Of a stretch of 20,000 bases of DNA, positions 1 to 18,115 are shown in pieces (the first letter of the stretch is position 1; each line of letters begins with the position of its first letter). The notes beneath the pieces are model-generated. The model saw only the letters and a list, made by a program, of their open reading frames with translations, was not told where the DNA came from and did no database searches. This DNA comes from Catajapyx aquilonaris (Eukaryota), in assembly GCA_000934665.2 (NCBI GenBank), contig JYFJ02001452.1:59584-79583 (forward strand), given 5' to 3'. The translations under genes and the position numbers were made by a program.

Positions 1-438
1 CCTGATCCGGCGAGATTATCCTTTTCCATTTGTATCAGTTGAGACACTGAAGCAACTTGTCCAACACTATAATTATAACCTTCCTCTATATGTAGGTCTG
101 CGTGTAATTTTCTCCTTGCAAAAACATGTCAGACGCGCAATTTCCTTAAGCACACAAAACTCGCACACTGCCGTTGTCGCAGTTTAAAGGGGCAAAGAAA
201 CCGTCAACTCAAGCGTTGCTTCAATGTTCGTTCAAGTCTGACACGTCGACAAAGTGAAGGCCCAAAAGCAAACATTTTCCGCGCCCCCAAACGTCGAACT
301 TCTGTTATATACTGTATATAAAAATATATAGATATATATTCCTGTTGGTTTTCTCTCTCTCGGTTTTTTTTTTGTGATACACACTAACACTACTCTACCA
401 GTAAGAAATTACATGTTCTACCTCGAAAGTGCTTATAC

Positions 439-619
439 CTGGAAGCCATCATAAGTCCAGCTACCAAACTTCATGTCACAGCGCTGATCGTCAAAGGGGA
501 ACCACGTAATGTCTATCTTGCATGTGCTCTTGAAGATGCCCGGCGGAACGTACAAGCAGCTACCGTTATTTCTGACCACAACATTTGTGGGATAGGTCCC
601 GTCGAAACCCTCATCGGCA
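439..619 (-). CDS. nAChRalpha7: nAChR alpha7-like subunit, exon 5 ([61 protein letters not shown]; loop E, Cys-loop, loop B)
   Basis: Contains the Cys-loop [15 protein letters not shown] and loop B SWTYDG. Acceptor ctttcctgcaag|T completes the AG/T Ser codon from exon 4, and the donor is CAG|gtataa. It is 181 nt, phase 2 to 0. Confidence 0.97.
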
Positions 620-3251
620 CTTGCAGGAAAGGTGGGAAACAAGGGGTAAGTATAACGGTTTACTTTTTTTTTCTTTTTTGCACGGTTAGTAAACAGAACA
701 ACACAGACTGCCCTATAAATGCAGGGGTGGAATATTAGGTGAGAAAAGAAACAATTTACGTTCCACTATAAGAGAATAAGTGCACTACTCAACCGGAGGG
801 GGGATAAAGATTAAAAATGTCGACTTTTTTTAAAAGAACAGGACAGAAGAAAAAAAATGGCCAGTTTTATGTCAAGAAAAATCAACCCAGCCCCAGAAAA
901 ACTCAAAAGGTTGCACACCGAAGAAGAAAAATAGAAGAAAAAACGAGAGAGAACAGCTATCAAAAAATATAGAGATTTAAAAAAAATAGAGTTCAGAGGA
1001 AAATTGTGGACAAGAAAAAAAAAAACACCGAAGCAGCCAAAACCACGTATTGGGCTACACGATACGCAGTTCATGGGACTATCACCAGGCGACCATCACC
1101 CCACATGGAAACACAGGATTTGGTGAGTCCGCTGGGGAGTCACCTCCTGCGCCTCAACCGCTGTGTTTCCAGCAAGAGCGATTCTAACTTGGAAACATGG
1201 TGGCCCAACAACAACGGCATCTGGCCATCGTACATTGTCACCGGGCAGGTCACAAAAAGATCAGAGCCAAAAGTGAGTTTCCCCTTTACGCATGATATGA
1301 TATTGTATAAGATATGTGTACTGAACGAACTGCTGCACCAGACAGCTCGAGCTTCAGTTTTACCCCCGACTAGTTGGTTTGTTCGCCATGGGAGTTCGCT
1401 ATTTCCAACCCCATGACTCGCAAACCCTTCAGCTAATATTAGATATCACCTACTAAGGACAATAGTTTTAAAAGCAATATTTCTGCAAAATTATGTCTAA
1501 AAGTCTTGGGATAGGAAGAGAGTGTGAGCATTTCCTTTTTCTTTCTTTCTCTATGATTTATGGTGCCGCTCACAACGTCTGACTGGACAGTACTTGTACT
1601 GGGTGTCACTCCAGCTCTGTCCCAGCACAAATCAAACCACTTCCTCCACCTAACACTACTTACATTTGTCCTGACCAGTCCAGTAATTAATTGGTTCGGC
1701 GACATCAGACGTTACCTTTCTTTCGACCATCGGTTGCATATCCTTTCGTAACACAACTTCAGTTGCATCGGTCTCGAAATGAAACTGCAGGTGTGGAAAA
1801 CGATACAAACGAAACAAAAAAGGCGCAGTCGTTCACTCCAGCAAATGTGACACACTCAAAAAGGGTTTACTTTTACTCGCATTAAGCGGAGTAACAAATA
1901 CTCTACAAAGCAATCAGGAAACATTCGCTTGTAATTTGTACAGTGGGCGTCCCCAGTTAAATTCGAGTGTCTTTTGCACATGTGTCTGGACAATTAACAA
2001 ATCTTTGTACTCGCATATGTGGCAAAAAAAAACCTACTTGCGATACACCCTGTACTACTGGGCGCCAAACATGCATATCTTGTTTTGGTATCAGAAAAAA
2101 ATCCTATTCACCCTCCGCCAGTTCTCTCACACACTTTTTTTTCGCAGGGACGTCCAGAATTTGACGGTATCTGTACTTCGAGCGGAGATAAAACCCGGGT
2201 TCTCTGGCGCCCACAAACAAAAGGAGTCCGAAGGCCATTGTGTGGATTCACCGTTTGAATTAATCGCCATTGAACTGACACACACATAAAAGTAGTCTGG
2301 CGTTTTGACTTGGCCGTCGCATGTCTGTAAACTTTTTCCGAAAAACAATGGGGTTGTCCAGCGAGTGCATAATATGCGCCTGGGAAATAGAATAATCAAC
2401 AAAATAGTTTATAGGAAGACTACAACAAGTTGGTCGAAAGGAAAGAAACAGCACATCGGCCAGAGACATGTTCACACGTTCTCACCCATCGCACCTCCTC
2501 GCGTCCTCTTTCGCATACCATCTAAAACAAAGCATTACAACTAGACTAAGAGTAGGGAGGCTTACCTTTCCCATCACATATAACAAGACAGTTATATACC
2601 GAAGGCCATCAATATGTGGCCGAAATAGGAGGTGGCACACACGCAAGACAGGAGCGGCCAGGGGCAAAACTGAAGTCTGCCGAGTTGGAAGCCATAAGGC
2701 TACATACCAACAGTCCTTTGGCTACAACTTTTGGGCTCCCAATAAGCCTCGTCCCCTTCCACGGTGTCCCTTGTTGCTGGCTTGCCAACTGAACAACTGG
2801 CCACACTAAACTTTTCTTTTTTTTTGTAAGTAACTACACAGCAGGGGAAGGAAAATCATTGCTGAAACACAAAGTGTAACTGTTTTCTCTCGAATATTTA
2901 AAAAAATGGTATCTGTATAAAAAAAAAGAAATTGAGACGAACATAGTCGTAAAATTTATAGGGCAGAGTACAGGCTAAATAAATTTTAAGTATACTTTTC
3001 AAATCAAGTGAGCTACAATTTTGTCAGTTGAATTACGTTCAATGCATATTTATCAGGGGAGAGAAATGGTGCGGGTTAATTGTTGGACACTCCGCACTAT
3101 ATCTCCATCCTGTATTTACGTGTAACTGCGATGTCATTAGGCAGCCGTTCACAAAAATTCTGTTACGTCTTGCAGCTTCCTATTGTCATCGCGGATGCAA
3201 CTAAGATCACGTGATGAGAGACAACGGCACACGCATGCTTTTTGGCCATAC
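620..3251 (-). other. Intron 4 (about 2.6 kb), rich in inverted repeats
   Basis: gtatgg..aag borders, with multiple complementary segments (see findings). Confidence 0.88.
1073..1354 (-). promoter_or_regulatory. Putative editing-complementary sequence (ECS): degenerate inverted copy of exon 5
   Basis: Plus-strand 1193-1247 AAACATGGTGGCCCAACAACAACGGCATCTGGCCATCGTACATTGTCACCGGGCA aligns with exon 5 sense AAATGTTGTGGTCAGAAATAACGGTAGCTGCTTGTACGTTCCGCCGGGCA (586-537). Most differences are T>C or G>A, which are G-U wobbles in the pre-mRNA. Further colinear blocks flank this core. Confidence 0.75.
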
Positions 3252-3361
3252 CTGTTGTACATGAGCACATCGGGTTTCCAGATGCGATGCGGCGGTATCC
3301 TAAGATCCTTCACCCCACCATATTCAGACACGTTCCACCGGAGATTCACGTCGTTCCATTC
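3252..3361 (-). CDS. nAChRalpha7: nAChR alpha7-like subunit, exon 4 ([37 protein letters not shown], loop A)
   Basis: Contains the WKPDVLMYN loop A motif, and IPPHRIW is alpha7/alpha5-like. Acceptor accag|GAA, donor AACAG|gtatgg. It is 110 nt, phase 0 to 2, with branch-point-like AACTAAC at 3381-3387. Confidence 0.96.
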
Positions 3362-6300
3362 CTGGTCATAGATTCAGACAGTTAGTTAACAAATTCTGAT
3401 ACCCCGAGCACTCCTAGGACGCAATTGCCTCACTTCATCTTTCCATTTTTCAAAAAAATTATTAGCTCAAAGTTTGCTCCGTATTTATATTATTCCAGAG
3501 GCAAAGATTCCTGGAGCGCTGAACAACAACGACTACGAAAAGACATCCAGGATGCAAGAGTAATTATAAAATAACCGAGTGATAGATGTAACAAGTTAAT
3601 TGTAAAAACCGCGGCCAGACAGAAACGCACAAGGCGACAGAAAATAGCGACATCCATTTTCTCTGTGATTTGTGTGTTTGCAACCGCTTTTTGGTTATTA
3701 TATCTCCCCCGAAGATTGATGTGCAGTATACTTCAGTGCAACTGATACGATCCGTACCTTTCCGCATCTATAATGGAAACACACAACCCACAGAGGGCAA
3801 AAAACATAATAATCCCACAGACTGTAAAACAAAAAGGCCAGAAAAAAATATAGTAGCAAAATTTTTTCCATATACCGATCATTTTTTATATCACAAAAGT
3901 CACCCAGTTATAAAAACTAAATCTATCTAAAACACGTCAGGTCTACAGCTACACAAATCGTTTAGATGTGTTTTCAGTTTGTGAAATGTTTAAAAAGCAC
4001 ATGTATACAATGCAGTCTATATGCTAGTTAACATTTACCTCAGGCAATTGCTTTCAGCAATTGCTTGAATTACCCATTTACAAACAAAAACATCTTAAAA
4101 CAATCAACTCCGTTTGTAAAAGGTAATTTTGCTAGATGCCTACACAAAACCCCAAAATGCTTTTTGGTTGAAAAAACTCAAAAGTTAATGCAGTACTGCT
4201 TCCCTCACATTGTACCGCAAAACCAAAAAACAACAACGCGATAACTCAAAAATTTAAAAATAAACGAATGACCGGTTTTCGTCAGGCCCAAAAACTGATG
4301 AAAGCCACGGTAGAGAAAGAAAGCAAACTGCAACAGTCGCCTCCTCAGAACTGATCAGAAACCTAAATCAGAAACCGATACAGGCCTGTTTATGTAACAA
4401 TGCAATCCCTGACATTTTGCAGCCCGTTTTTTTTTTACTTGCCATCTGGAGAGTTGTAGTGCACTTTCCTCCTCTTCCAATGAGGATCAGTCTGTGGGCC
4501 GCCAAGTCTGTCTGCAAAAATTTCTTTTACTTCTAGAGCCACCAAAAAATTTGCAGAGCTCAAAGCCCACGTCCTTTTCTTTCTTTTTTTATTCTCCGGG
4601 AGTTTAAGTAATTGCTTTCTTTTGCAGGAAAAATGAATAAAAGAAACGGCGAGTATCAATATTGCCTCGGCTGTTCTTACTGTCAAATTCCCGAGAGATA
4701 CCGGGCAAATATCCTAGTTCCTTAGGTTCCTTTTAGTGGCTCCGCGTTCTGCACACTCCTTTACTCTCAAGGTACGAGTTTGTTCAATAATTTTAGAAGC
4801 AAGGAGCAACTTAGACTTGGTTTGCAGAATTTTGAAAAATGCGGATTGGAATGTGATTGTGCAGTCATCTAACATGATCTTACACTTACAACTACTACAC
4901 ATTGATACATTTAAAAACACAATTTTTTTAAACATTAGGTGTGGCGTACACAAAACTGTAAAAATGTTCATGTCTTTGTGAATCTGTCTAAAACCATGAT
5001 TTCATTTTTCCTTTTTTTGTCAAAATTCGGCAATATTCCTTCATTGGCTCTGGACAGCTTGGGTTGTGTGCATCGTTTTTTCTGTCTCTTTGTTTAATAT
5101 AGTCAGCACAACTCAATGTCTTTGGTTGTCGTTTATATGTATCGGGCAGTTAATCCCCATCGTCGTCGTTACAATAGCGACAAAAAAGGTAGCGTGAATA
5201 AAACGGGACTCTAAACTGCGCGTCAAATTGCAAATCGCGGTCGTCCTCGGCATATTTCCACAATTGCAACAATTTGCGATTCAAATAAGAGCCGTTTCAC
5301 CCACGACGGTCTCGGATTTAAAACTTCCCTTTCACTCGAGTAACTACCCCATTTTATAGATCAATTGCCCACTGAGAGCTAAAGGTGCATCGACGCCACT
5401 CTCAATGTCAATTAAATTCAGCTTTGGAGATCAGCCTTTTGCAATTTTCCCATTGATTACCGCCATTTTGAGTGTTATTACTTAAAAGGAGCTCGCTGCA
5501 TGCGGTTAGTCAACCTCCCTCTTTTTTTTTTATTCGCATAAAATCTACTGGATGTGCTTTAGTTTCCGTCCTGGTCGGTTAATCGAACACAAAAATAAAC
5601 ACTACGCTGGATGTCTTATCGAATTTTAGAGCTGTCAAGTCATATGGACCTTTTTTTAAAACTTTGAAATGATCCCGACAGCTACCTTCATGCTGTCGTG
5701 TCTTTTAAGGGACATTGCGTAGTTTAAGAATCAAGAGAATTTTCCAGTAGTTCGGGAGCCAGCCAACAGGCGGCTCGCGATAGACGCCAATAGCAGTCGC
5801 TTCACGTGGCCGTTAGTCGAACTACGCAGTGTCCCCCATTTTGGTTCCGTATTTTAAAATATCATCACTCCTTCTCCGTCCCGAGGAATGGAGTGAACAT
5901 TTTTTGGGGGAGGGTTTAAAAAATTTAAATAAACAAATAAATCCATGCAGCATTCGCTATATGATTCGCTTCCTTGTTTCGTGAGGAGGCTGAACCTATT
6001 TGTGTGTCGCCAAAATCTGTTGTTTTTTTTGCACAAGGGTCGAAATGTAGCATGCATATAACAAAACTGCTGACCCTTCTTTTCTCAGATTGAAATGCCA
6101 CAGGTTTATTGTTTATTATTCCAGCTCATTATTTTTTTTTTCCACGCTTGCCTGCCTACATGCACACTGGTTGCTTTTATTTTCTATGTGTAGATGCGTG
6201 TGTCGTCTGTCCCCGTGCAATAAATAGTACCAAGCCAATCCATACTATGGACCGAACAAAATTACTTCTAAGGTTGCCTCAGTTTTTAGAGGCTGAAAAA

Positions 6301-8158: not shown

Positions 8159-8203
8159 CAGTCTTAACCACATGTTTGTAATGAGAAGCTGATTCTTCTC
8201 ATC
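8159..8203 (-). CDS. nAChRalpha7: nAChR alpha7-like subunit, alternative exon 3b (DEKNQLLITNMWLRL, loop D)
   Basis: Minus strand reads ttttcattgcatgggatag|GAT GAG AAG AAT CAG CTT CTC ATT ACA AAC ATG TGG TTA AGA CTG|gtaagt. It is 45 nt, phase 0/0, with a branch-point-like AACTAAC at about 8237-8243. Confidence 0.93.
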
Positions 8204-8863: not shown

Positions 8864-8908
8864 CAAATTTAACCAGATGTTCGTGATAATGATTTGGTTC
8901 TTTTCATC
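8864..8908 (-). CDS. nAChRalpha7: nAChR alpha7-like subunit, alternative exon 3a (DEKNQIIITNIWLNL, loop D)
   Basis: Minus strand reads ctttttctctcctag|GAT GAA AAG AAC CAA ATC ATT ATC ACG AAC ATC TGG TTA AAT TTG|gtaagt. It is 45 nt, phase 0/0, and is not in the ORF track. Confidence 0.93.
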
Positions 8909-17975: not shown

Positions 17976-18115
17976 AACATCAATGATCTGCATGAGGGTG
18001 AGGCCGAAGCTGAGCTGAAGAGGGTCTGATTCGTTGGCAACTGGTCGTTCCAGAACGTTATATCTGTCCAGGAGTGTGTGAAGCAGCCGTTTCTCGTGCG
18101 GACCTTGAAGGGACC
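17976..18115 (-). CDS. nAChRalpha7: nAChR alpha7-like subunit, exon 2 (xG-SLQGPHEKRLLHTLLDRYNVLERPVANESDPLQLSFGLTLMQIIDV)
   Basis: Translation matches the N-terminal helix of insect alpha5/6/7 subunits, and DPLQLSFGLTLMQIIDV is the alpha5/alpha7 type. Acceptor tatttccag|GG, donor GTT|gtaagt. It is 140 nt, phase 1 to 0, the same length as CHRNA7 exon 2. Confidence 0.96.

What the first reader, a model, noticed from the sequence alone, without database searches (positions are those of the whole stretch)
439..1354. Inverted, wobble-drifted copy of nearly all of exon 5 in intron 4: candidate ADAR editing duplex
Seen: colinear plus-strand blocks mirror the exon 5 sense strand. These are GGGACTATCACCA (about 1075-1087, vs GGGACCTATCCCA), the 55-nt core 1193-1247 (vs exon 586-537), CACAAAAAGATCAGA (1251-1265, vs CACATGCAAGATAGA), GTGAGTTTCCCCTTTACG (1273-1290, vs GTGGTTCCCCTTTGACG), CATGATATGA (1291-1300, vs TGTGACATGA) and GACAGCTCGAGCTT (1341-1354, vs GGTAGCTGGACTT). 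The spurious + ORF 1006-1416 even retains NNG..Y..G..FPF. In the core, substitutions are mostly T>C or G>A, which keep pairing as G-U only on the transcribed (minus) strand. Known: insect nAChR alpha6 transcripts are A-to-I edited in exactly this exon (the TNxVV, xNGS glycosylation and CKIDI to CKMDI region). Inference: this is an ECS, possibly born by inverted exon duplication, directing recoding of loop E in an alpha7-type subunit. An example target is AAC at 567-565, whose editing would remove the N-G-S sequon.
Basis: partly seen in the sequence, partly recalled or inferred. Interest (0 to 1): 0.85.

Follow-up and report, generated by a model that had tools for sequence, protein, structure and literature searches.

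The report
Intronic editing guide for receptor exon
An intron of an insect nicotinic receptor gene carries a conserved stretch that can pair with the next exon and most likely guides the RNA-editing enzyme ADAR to recode two asparagines there, a well-known kind of element found here for a new gene.

Summary
The gene on the minus strand is an insect alpha7-type (gfA-like) nicotinic receptor: exon 4 is 3252-3361, intron 4 is 620-3251, exon 5 is 439-619. Judged by plain identity, the "inverted copy" is no better than chance. Judged as an RNA complement that allows G-U pairs, it stands out.

The decisive evidence is conservation. Against 80 loci from other animals, the only non-exonic match to the window is the core of this element, 1200-1267. 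It matches L001 and L002/L003, whose introns are otherwise unalignable with the window's.

A consensus fold gives six exon:intron helices, 1075-1291 with 490-600, interrupted by a stable side hairpin.

RNA contigs carrying this exon differ from the genome at only two places, 570 and 566. Both are A>G on the sense strand, giving N>D and N>S and destroying the N-G-S sequon. Both lie in the longest helix, and DNA contigs have A. Caveat: no RNA and DNA come from the same animal.

Verdict: a genuine ADAR editing-site complementary sequence, a new member of a known kind. An origin by inverted exon duplication is not shown. The outer block 1341-1354 and the predicted sites 584-586 and 514 are not supported for this gene.

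The parts
439..619 (-). Exon 5 of an alpha7-type nAChR gene. It encodes the loop E / Cys-loop region and is the edited target.
   Evidence: Translation. Splice sites read. RNA joint 619->3252. 93-98% identity to insect alpha7-named proteins.
570..570 (-). Adenosine read as G in RNA contigs: AAT>GAT, Asn>Asp.
   Evidence: in X5, 148.8 of 148.8 depth on one contig carries the change; in DNA runs X1 and X4, 0 of 35.2 and 0 of 56. Codon effect. Paired with 1210 at probability 0.94.
566..566 (-). Adenosine read as G in RNA contigs: AAC>AGC, Asn>Ser, which removes the N-G-S sequon.
   Evidence: same contig and depths as for 570. Codon effect. Paired with 1214 at probability 1.0.
1278..1291 (-). ECS helix 1 arm, pairing with exon 490-502 (the ...GTTCCCCTTTGAC stretch).
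   Evidence: Consensus fold. 9 of 13 pairs are invariant. One compensatory change: 1291/490 is G-C in the window and A-U in L001 and L002.
1260..1267 (-). ECS helix 2 arm, pairing with exon 526-534 in the consensus fold. In the window's own fold it pairs with 511-519 instead.
   Evidence: 7 of 8 pairs are invariant.
1195..1247 (-). ECS core, helices 3-5: 1239-1247 with 537-545, 1210-1233 with 550-570, and 1195-1205 with 574-584. It contains the partners of both edited adenosines.
   Evidence: blastn matches window 1200-1248 to L001 at 92% over 49 nt, and 1200-1267 to L002/L003 at 84.5% over 71 nt. 36 of 39 pairs are invariant and 3 show one-sided compatible changes. Pair probabilities are mostly 0.9-1.0.
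1084..1194 (-). Insert between helices 5 and 6 that folds on itself into a side hairpin, making a three-way junction. It includes a window-specific insertion of about 34 nt (about 1086-1120).
   Evidence: -46.8 kcal/mol, z -3.3. The 71-nt inserts of L001 and L002 differ in sequence but also fold (z -4.4 and -3.4). The alignment shows the insertion.
1075..1083 (-). ECS helix 6 arm, pairing with exon 591-600 (GGGACCTATC).
   Evidence: 9 of 9 pairs are invariant. The surrounding block GTGATAGTCCCA is identical in the window, L001 and L002.
620..3251 (-). Intron 4 (GT..AG), which hosts the ECS 456-672 nt upstream of exon 5.
   Evidence: and the joint 619->3252. Flat single-copy depth in DNA runs.
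3252..3361 (-). Exon 4 (110 nt, [36 protein letters not shown]).
   Evidence: tblastn and the sequence.

Best explanation
Window 1075-1291 (minus strand), inside intron 4 of an alpha7-type nicotinic receptor gene, is an editing-site complementary sequence (ECS).

It is transcribed about 460-670 nt ahead of exon 5. Once exon 5 emerges, six colinear stretches of the element pair with exon bases 490-600. Together they form an imperfect duplex of about 70-95 bp, interrupted by a self-folding side hairpin (1084-1194).

Before intron 4 is spliced out, ADAR binds this duplex and deaminates A570 and A566, which sit in the longest helix (1210-1233 with 550-570). Inosine is read as G, so R-N-N-G-S becomes R-D-S-G-S and the N-glycosylation sequon in the ligand-binding domain is lost.

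Shown here: the complementarity; its conservation in a second lineage within an otherwise unalignable intron; its presence in thermodynamic folds; and A>G at exactly these two bases in RNA contigs against A in DNA contigs.

Inferred: that ADAR is the enzyme, that this duplex rather than another is its substrate, and what the recoding does to the protein.
For: (1) Conservation. blastn of the whole window against 80 loci gave exon hits plus a single non-exonic block: 1200-1267 against L001, L002 and L003. L002 and L003 are identical. L001 is 95% identical to them. The window shares 176 of 186 exon bases with L001. In alignment A1, 63 of 69 ECS-paired intron columns are identical between the window and L001, against 223 of 478 other aligned intron columns (Fisher p 2e-13). 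For L002 the figures are 63 of 69 against 210 of 475.

(2) Pairing. RNAalifold on the three distinct sequences gives six exon:ECS helices. 98.1% of 207 cells are paired, against 37-49% when the partner is slid by 1-3 columns. The window's own minimum-energy fold contains 95 exon:ECS pairs (83 Watson-Crick, 12 G-U) in 9 of 10 sequence contexts from 0.9 to 2.4 kb. L001 and L002, folded alone, give 78 and 57 such pairs in 4 of 4 contexts each, with the homologous adenosines paired.

(3) Specificity. A core-only complement scan over 32 loci and the window picks out only the window (z 5.6), L001 (z 4.3), L002/L003 (z 5.1 and 6.0) and the palindromic contig L016.

(4) Editing. RNA contig 20 of run X5 covers 515-621 and has exactly two differences, T>C at 566 and 570 on the plus strand. 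That is 148.8 of 148.8 depth. DNA runs X1 and X4 show 0 of 35.2 and 0 of 56. In X6, labelled as the same organism as the DNA runs, a paralogue's exon carries the same two changes relative to that paralogue's DNA contigs.

(5) Published context. Editing at the sequon is known for the alpha6 paralogue, where sites 4 and 5 remove the N-glycosylation site (PMC2064938, passages read). Drosophila nAChRalpha7 is edited in its ligand-binding domain (PMC6369821, passages read).
Against: Statistics within the window alone are modest. Duplex energy gives z of -2.3 to -2.6, with some shuffles lower. 5 of 300 shuffles reach the G-U-aware alignment score, and plain identity is not significant.

In the longest context folded (430-3400, and also 1-3400) the minimum-energy structure has no exon:ECS pairs. 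The exon pairs with itself and with 2833-2882 instead.

Covariation is almost uninformative: 61 of 69 pairs never vary, only one is compensatory, and 162 of 500 shuffles do as well.

The RNA evidence comes from assembled contigs of other samples. X5 is a mixed invertebrate library whose only exon-4 contig differs from the window at 7 places, the six listed all spaced by multiples of three. Other X5 contigs match the window's intron flanks with 0 and 2 differences. A close relative may therefore be present, and a genomic G in that relative cannot be excluded. No RNA contig covers the ECS.

No such complement was found in 28 other loci, including an alpha7-type locus with a short intron 4 (L005). 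The paralogue is edited at the same sites, and its own complement is unknown.
Confidence: 0.8

Rival explanations
1. The conserved exon:intron duplex is real, but its main role is in splicing: it masks or presents exon 5 or its splice sites, or slows removal of intron 4. Editing at 570 and 566 would then be directed by another complement, for example in intron 5 beyond the window, or would be a by-product.
For: X5 holds contigs that run from exon 5 into both flanking introns at about a quarter of the exon's depth: contig 22 (594-672, depth 38.8) and contig 17 (378-468, depth 37.1), against about 140 for the exon. A paralogue is edited at the same sites, and nothing is known of its complement. 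Only 438 nt downstream of exon 5 lie in the window.
Against: Both changed adenosines sit inside the longest and best conserved helix of this duplex. The duplex does not cover either splice site: it spans exon 490-600 of 439-619. No other conserved intronic block was found, including in the 3.3 kb downstream of the exon in L001. The two roles are not exclusive.
Confidence: 0.08
2. The two A>G differences are genomic variants of a related strain or species in the RNA samples, not editing. The intronic element would then be a conserved structure of unknown use.
For: X5 is a mixed invertebrate metatranscriptome. Its exon-4 contig differs from the window at 7 places, and its intron-3 flank diverges. 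Hard-wired versions of the edited state exist: locus L008 encodes R-D-S-G-K in DNA. Jin et al. report edited sites that are genomic G in other species (PMC1919356, passages read).
Against: The exon contigs show no other difference in 183 bases: contig 19 has 0 and contig 20 has only these two. Both are A>G on the sense strand. Both are non-synonymous at the sequon that is edited in the alpha6 paralogue in the literature. Every alpha7-type genomic locus examined that encodes R-N-N-G-S (window, L001, L002/L003, L004, L005) has A at both positions. In X6, labelled as the same organism as the DNA runs, the paralogue matches its DNA contigs at all six diagnostic positions yet carries the same two changes.
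Confidence: 0.1
3. The element is a decaying relic of an inverted duplication of exon 5, or a chance complement, with no present function.
For: Plain-identity similarity is at chance level. Energy statistics within the window are weak. In the window, helix 6's arm has a partial tandem copy in a lineage-specific insertion, which shows local duplication activity.
Against: A neutral relic would not stay 91% identical (63 of 69 paired columns) while the rest of the intron sits at chance-level alignment (47%), nor keep pairing in both lineages. G-U pairs outnumber A.C mismatches 12 to 2. The plus-strand ORF is not preserved: indels of +6, +2 and -1 nt separate the conserved blocks in L001 and L002.
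Confidence: 0.02

Closest known systems
A-to-I editing of exon 5 of insect nAChR alpha6 (sites 4-6). Sources: Jin et al. 2007, PMC1919356, passages read; Jones and Sattelle 2007, PMC2064938, passages read; Grauso et al. 2002, not held, recalled only.
   Same: The homologous exon of a sister subunit is affected. Editing removes the same N-glycosylation sequon. It is conserved across insect orders. The exon is unusually conserved at the nucleotide level.
   Different: This gene is the alpha7-type paralogue by best-hit names. The passages I read do not map an ECS: Jin et al. say only that the flanking introns are divergent, and they assume downstream intronic sequence is needed. Here the complement lies upstream, in intron 4, and is conserved. 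The I>M site (514) is changed only in the paralogue's contig.
Editing of Drosophila nAChRalpha7 in the ligand-binding domain (Sapiro et al. 2019, PMC6369821, passages read).
   Same: Same subunit type and same protein domain.
   Different: The passages I read give neither the residue nor the ECS. Whether it is the same site is not known to me.
Classical exon-intron editing duplexes: the GluA2 (Gria2) Q/R-site intronic ECS (named in the abstract of PMC7045468 in a search listing; otherwise recalled), and the conserved exon plus conserved intronic ECS signature used by Hoopengardner et al. 2003 (cited in PMC2064938; paper not seen, recalled).
   Same: An intronic complement in the same pre-mRNA. 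An imperfect duplex that contains the edited adenosine. An island of conservation in a diverged intron.
   Different: Here the ECS is upstream of the exon. It is split into six colinear helices covering about 110 exon bases, and it carries a self-folding insert that would form a three-way junction.

Membership tests
ADAR editing-site complementary sequence (exon-intron editing duplex) | An intronic stretch on the transcribed strand that is complementary to the edited exon. | tested here: met
   95 pairs in the window's fold. 69 consensus pairs, 98.1% of cells paired. Core-only scan z 5.6. Wrong-strand control scores 49 against 80.
ADAR editing-site complementary sequence (exon-intron editing duplex) | The edited adenosines lie inside the duplex. 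| tested here: met
   570 pairs with 1210 and 566 with 1214, in helix 4 (20 invariant pairs). The homologous adenosines are also paired in L001 and L002.
ADAR editing-site complementary sequence (exon-intron editing duplex) | A in genomic DNA and G (inosine) in RNA of the same organism. | tested here: inconclusive
   RNA contigs have G at 566 and 570, and DNA contigs have A. The samples differ, the data are contigs rather than reads, and X5 may contain a close relative.
ADAR editing-site complementary sequence (exon-intron editing duplex) | The complement is conserved between species within a diverged intron. | tested here: met
   It is the only non-exonic blastn block against 80 loci. Identity is 63 of 69 in paired columns against 223 of 478 elsewhere, p 2e-13. 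This rests on only two lineages (three distinct sequences).
ADAR editing-site complementary sequence (exon-intron editing duplex) | Compensatory base changes that keep the pairs. | tested here: inconclusive
   Of 69 pairs, 1 is compensatory, 3 show one-sided compatible changes and 61 are invariant. 162 of 500 shuffles do as well.
ADAR editing-site complementary sequence (exon-intron editing duplex) | Editing depends on the complement and on ADAR. | not testable with these tools
   This needs a minigene or genome deletion and an Adar knock-down.
Insect nAChR alpha7 (gfA) orthologue | Closest to proteins named alpha7 or gfA rather than alpha6. | tested here: met
   The window's exon 5 best matches 'nicotinic Acetylcholine Receptor alpha7 [Arctopsyche grandis]' and 'giant fiber A [Anopheles darlingi]'. 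The R-H-N-G-S / G-N-Q exon type of L007 instead matches 'alpha6 [Arctopsyche grandis]' and 'alpha-6 [Drosophila arizonae]'. This rests on names only; no tree was built. The two tandem exon-3 copies are described in the papers I read only for alpha6.
ECS born by inverted duplication of the exon | Similarity beyond what pairing requires (plain identity, co-duplicated flanks). | tested here: not met
   The plain-identity alignment is not above shuffles (26 against 24.4; 73 of 300 reach it). No flanking intron similarity was seen. Colinearity and spacing are equally required by a continuous helix.

The most novel reading that the evidence does not exclude
The complement is not just a guide strand but a structured module. 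It has six colinear arms and a self-folding insert whose sequence differs between lineages while its hairpin is kept, giving a three-way junction that confines ADAR to two adenosines. It may have arisen in this lineage by an inverted copy of exon 5 into intron 4. Paralogues that are edited at the same two asparagine codons would then use independently evolved complements, making this receptor family a natural experiment in how editing sites outlive their guide sequences.
Probability: 0.2. Interest if true: 0.65.

Novelty: new member of a known kind. Interest (0 to 1): 0.5.

Why it matters
Editing of this exon in the alpha5-7 group of insect nicotinic receptors has been known for two decades. 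Jin et al. called it the most conserved invertebrate editing event reported at that time. It changes the ligand-binding domain of subunits that matter for insect neurobiology and insecticide action. In six literature searches I found no paper that maps the RNA partner directing it; two key older papers were not available.

A concrete, conserved partner with coordinates makes the mechanism directly testable. It also gives a handle for abolishing editing without touching the protein code. With more genomes, one could then ask how such partners arise and turn over. It remains an ordinary example of a textbook mechanism.

Tried and rejected
- Whole-genome access: none is held, so the paralogue's locus and the gene's downstream introns could not be examined.
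- Earlier findings of this scan: nothing.
- Rfam: 0 matches at E<=1 in 1-3400.
- Peptide-motif search of the paper library: 0 papers.
- My recollection that Tian et al. 2011 (NAR) dealt with alpha6 was wrong; it is about Gabra3 (abstract read).
- Grauso et al. 2002 is not held.
- Whole-exon complement scan of 19 loci: apart from the palindromic L016, nothing stood out clearly. The element in L001-L003 was only marginal there (63 against 51-58 +/- 5), so that scan is insensitive. The core-only scan replaced it.
- I first read the DNA joint 622->3249 as a paralogue without intron 4. I rejected this: the table says 'between: not known', and both sides include three intronic letters (GTA.. and ..AAG), so an intron is likely there.
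- I first took the two exon-3 copies as proof that the gene is alpha6. I rejected this.
- The 3.4-kb fold's alternative partner for the exon (2833-2882) has no counterpart in any locus.
- RNA contigs covered none of the intron between 685 and 3192, so nothing can be said about editing of the ECS itself.
Full report
WHAT IS THERE

The minus strand of the window carries the 5' half of an insect nicotinic acetylcholine receptor gene of the alpha5-7 group.
- Exon 2 is about 17976-18113.
- Two tandem versions of exon 3 lie at about 8864-8908 and 8159-8203.
- Exon 4 is 3252-3361 and exon 5 is 439-619.
- Intron 4 (620-3251) has GT..AG ends, and an RNA contig joins 619 to 3252.

Exon 5 is 97-98% identical in protein to sequences that sources name alpha7, or 'giant fiber A', in many insect orders. 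The sister exon type (R-H-N-G-S ... G-N-Q, locus L007) instead hits proteins named alpha6. This rests on names, not on a tree.

THE OBSERVATION

As a 'copy' in the sense of sequence identity it is not distinguishable from chance. The best plain-identity alignment of the exon to the rest of the window scores 26, against 24.4 +/- 2.1 for shuffled exons, and it lies elsewhere.

As an RNA complement it does stand out.
- With G-U pairs counted, it is the best hit in 19.4 kb on both strands: 80 against 62.6 +/- 5.8, with 5 of 300 shuffles as good.
- With the 66-nt core alone, it scores 49 against 33.0 +/- 2.8, and the best of 60 shuffles is 43.
- Duplex energy by itself is weak evidence: z -2.3 to -2.6, with some shuffles lower. 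The element was the best of 764 tiles, but only narrowly.

The window's own fold pairs 1082-1300 with 471-605, giving 95 pairs (83 Watson-Crick and 12 G-U), many with probability near 1. This structure is the minimum-energy fold in 9 of 10 contexts between 0.9 and 2.4 kb. It disappears when 2800-3400 is included; the exon then pairs with itself and with 2833-2882. Within the window alone, then, the case is suggestive but not compelling.

CONSERVATION

A scan of metagenome contigs returned 80 loci that encode relatives of exon 5. blastn of the whole window against all of them gave exon matches and exactly one non-exonic block. Window 1200-1267 matches L002 and L003 (84.5% over 71 nt), and 1200-1248 matches L001 (92% over 49 nt), in each case about 390-470 nt upstream of their exon 5.

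L002 and L003 are identical, and L001 is 95% identical to them. The window shares 176 of 186 exon bases with L001, but the introns are otherwise unalignable.

In a three-sequence alignment (A1) four further short islands line up on either side of the core. RNAalifold pairs all of them, colinearly, with the exon. In window coordinates the helices are:
- 1278-1291 with 490-502
- 1260-1267 with 526-534
- 1239-1247 with 537-545
- 1210-1233 with 550-570
- 1195-1205 with 574-584
- 1075-1083 with 591-600

Of 207 cells, 98.1% are paired, against 37-49% when the partner is slid by 1-3 columns. Paired intron columns are identical between the window and L001 in 63 of 69 cases, against 223 of 478 for the other aligned intron columns (p 2e-13).

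L001 and L002, folded on their own, give 78 and 57 exon:element pairs in all four contexts tried.

Covariation adds little. 61 of 69 pairs never vary, three change on one side compatibly, and one is compensatory (1291/490: G-C against A-U). Shuffles do as well in 162 of 500 trials.

The stretch between helices 5 and 6 differs in sequence and length between the lineages, yet it folds into a stable hairpin in all three (z -3.3, -4.4, -3.4). The duplex would therefore carry a three-way junction.

Indels of +6, +2 and -1 nt separate the conserved blocks in L001 and L002.

A core-only complement scan of 32 loci and the window found the element only in the window and L001-L003, apart from L016. L016 is a palindromic contig throughout.

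RNA EVIDENCE

One search found four DNA runs of 'organism A', one mixed invertebrate RNA library (X5) and one small run with the organism A label (X6). X6 behaves as RNA: it shows spliced junctions. All are kept as contigs.

For this gene's exon, laid on 1-3400:
- X5 contig 19 (439-544) has no difference from the window.
- X5 contig 20 (515-621) has exactly two, plus-strand T>C at 566 and 570. It is the only contig there, at depth 148.8.
- DNA runs X1 and X4 have T: 0 of 35.2 and 0 of 56.

On the sense strand these are AAT>GAT (Asn>Asp) and AAC>AGC (Asn>Ser), turning R-N-N-G-S into R-D-S-G-S. Both adenosines lie in helix 4.

The DNA runs also reveal a paralogue with ten listed differences in this exon, implying P12H, V15I, L24V, V26I and D50A.
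- In X6 its contig matches the paralogue's DNA at all six diagnostic positions of the 5' half and carries the same two A>G changes.
- In X5 its 3' half carries T>C at 514 (Ile>Met).

Caveats:
- Contigs hide minor variants.
- No RNA and DNA come from one animal.
- X5's only exon-4 contig differs from the window at 7 places (the six listed are spaced by multiples of three), and its intron-3 flank diverges. Yet its contigs across the intron-5 and intron-4 flanks match the window with 0 and 2 differences. X5 may therefore hold a close relative as well as organism A.
- Against a genomic G: all alpha7-type genomic loci encoding R-N-N-G-S that I examined (window, L001, L002/L003, L004, L005) have A at both places.
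- For a genomic G: one alpha6-type locus (L008) encodes R-D-S-G-K in DNA, so hard-wiring does occur.

MECHANISM

The best reading is the classical one. The element is transcribed 456-672 nt ahead of exon 5. It pairs with the exon before intron 4 is removed and offers ADAR an imperfect duplex of about 70-95 bp. ADAR deaminates A570 and A566.

Shown: complementarity, conservation, fold predictions, and A>G at these two bases.

Inferred: the enzyme, the causal link between this duplex and the two changes, and the consequence for the protein. Loss of the sequon is as described for alpha6 sites 4 and 5 in PMC2064938.

Rivals are a splicing role for the duplex, genomic variants mistaken for editing, and a functionless relic. 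They are weighed in their own sections. None explains the combination of conservation, pairing and site position as well.

COMPARISON AND NOVELTY

Editing of this exon in alpha6 is long known and conserved across four insect orders (PMC1919356 and PMC2064938, passages read). Drosophila alpha7 is edited in its ligand-binding domain (PMC6369821, passages read).

In the papers I could read, the partner sequence is not mapped. Jin et al. note only that the flanking introns are divergent, and they assume a downstream partner. My searches found no paper that maps it. Grauso et al. 2002 and Hoopengardner et al. 2003 were not available and might bear on this. Supplements were not consulted.

This is therefore a new, well-supported member of a known kind, not a new kind. 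The proposal that it arose by inverted duplication of the exon remains open. Nothing beyond the complementarity that function requires was found.

Noticed in passing
window 8864-8908 and 8159-8203 (minus strand): There are two tandem 15-codon versions of exon 3 (DEKNQIIITNIWLNL and DEKNQLLITNMWLRL), which look like mutually exclusive exons. Both also have blastn matches in several loci (L009, L013/L014, L047). The papers I read describe exon 3a/3b only for alpha6, whereas this gene is alpha7-type by best-hit names.
   Followed up: partly
runs X1, X4, X5, X6 laid on window 436-622: The same genome holds a paralogue of exon 5 with ten listed base differences, implying P12H, V15I, L24V, V26I and D50A. 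Its RNA contigs carry A>G at the places homologous to 570 and 566 (X6) and at 514, giving Ile>Met (X5). Its own complementary sequence is unknown.
   Followed up: partly
run X5 on window 3252-3372: The only exon-4 contig in this RNA library differs from the window at 7 places; the six listed are spaced by multiples of three. Its intron-3 flank diverges. Exon 5 in the same depth class differs only at the two edited bases. Either a close relative is in the pool, or exon 5 is far more constrained at silent sites than exon 4.
   Followed up: no
run X5 on window 378-468 and 594-672: Contigs run from exon 5 into intron 5 (61 nt) and into the end of intron 4 (53 nt) at about a quarter of the exon's depth. 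This could be retained intron, pre-mRNA or alternative splice sites. Contig 17 then jumps to 41-61 with non-canonical ends.
   Followed up: no
window about 1086-1120: A window-specific insertion of about 34 nt, absent from L001 and L002, contains a near-repeat (GGTGATGGTC) of the conserved helix-6 arm (GGTGATAGTC). In the window's own fold this copy, not the conserved arm, pairs with exon 586-605.
   Followed up: partly
L016:1-4102: The whole contig is an imperfect palindrome, with arms 77-100% complementary around about 2040. It carries the exon, with an in-frame stop, at 152-334 and its inverted copy at 3751-3926. It is either a real head-to-head duplication of this gene segment or an assembly artefact.
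   Followed up: partly
L008:4951-5133: This alpha6-type exon encodes R-D-S-G-K in DNA, which is the hard-wired equivalent of the doubly edited state.
   Followed up: no
window 2833-2882 and 458-510: In the 3.4-kb fold the 3' part of exon 5 pairs with this distant intronic stretch (38 pairs). It has no counterpart in any of the 80 loci.
   Followed up: partly
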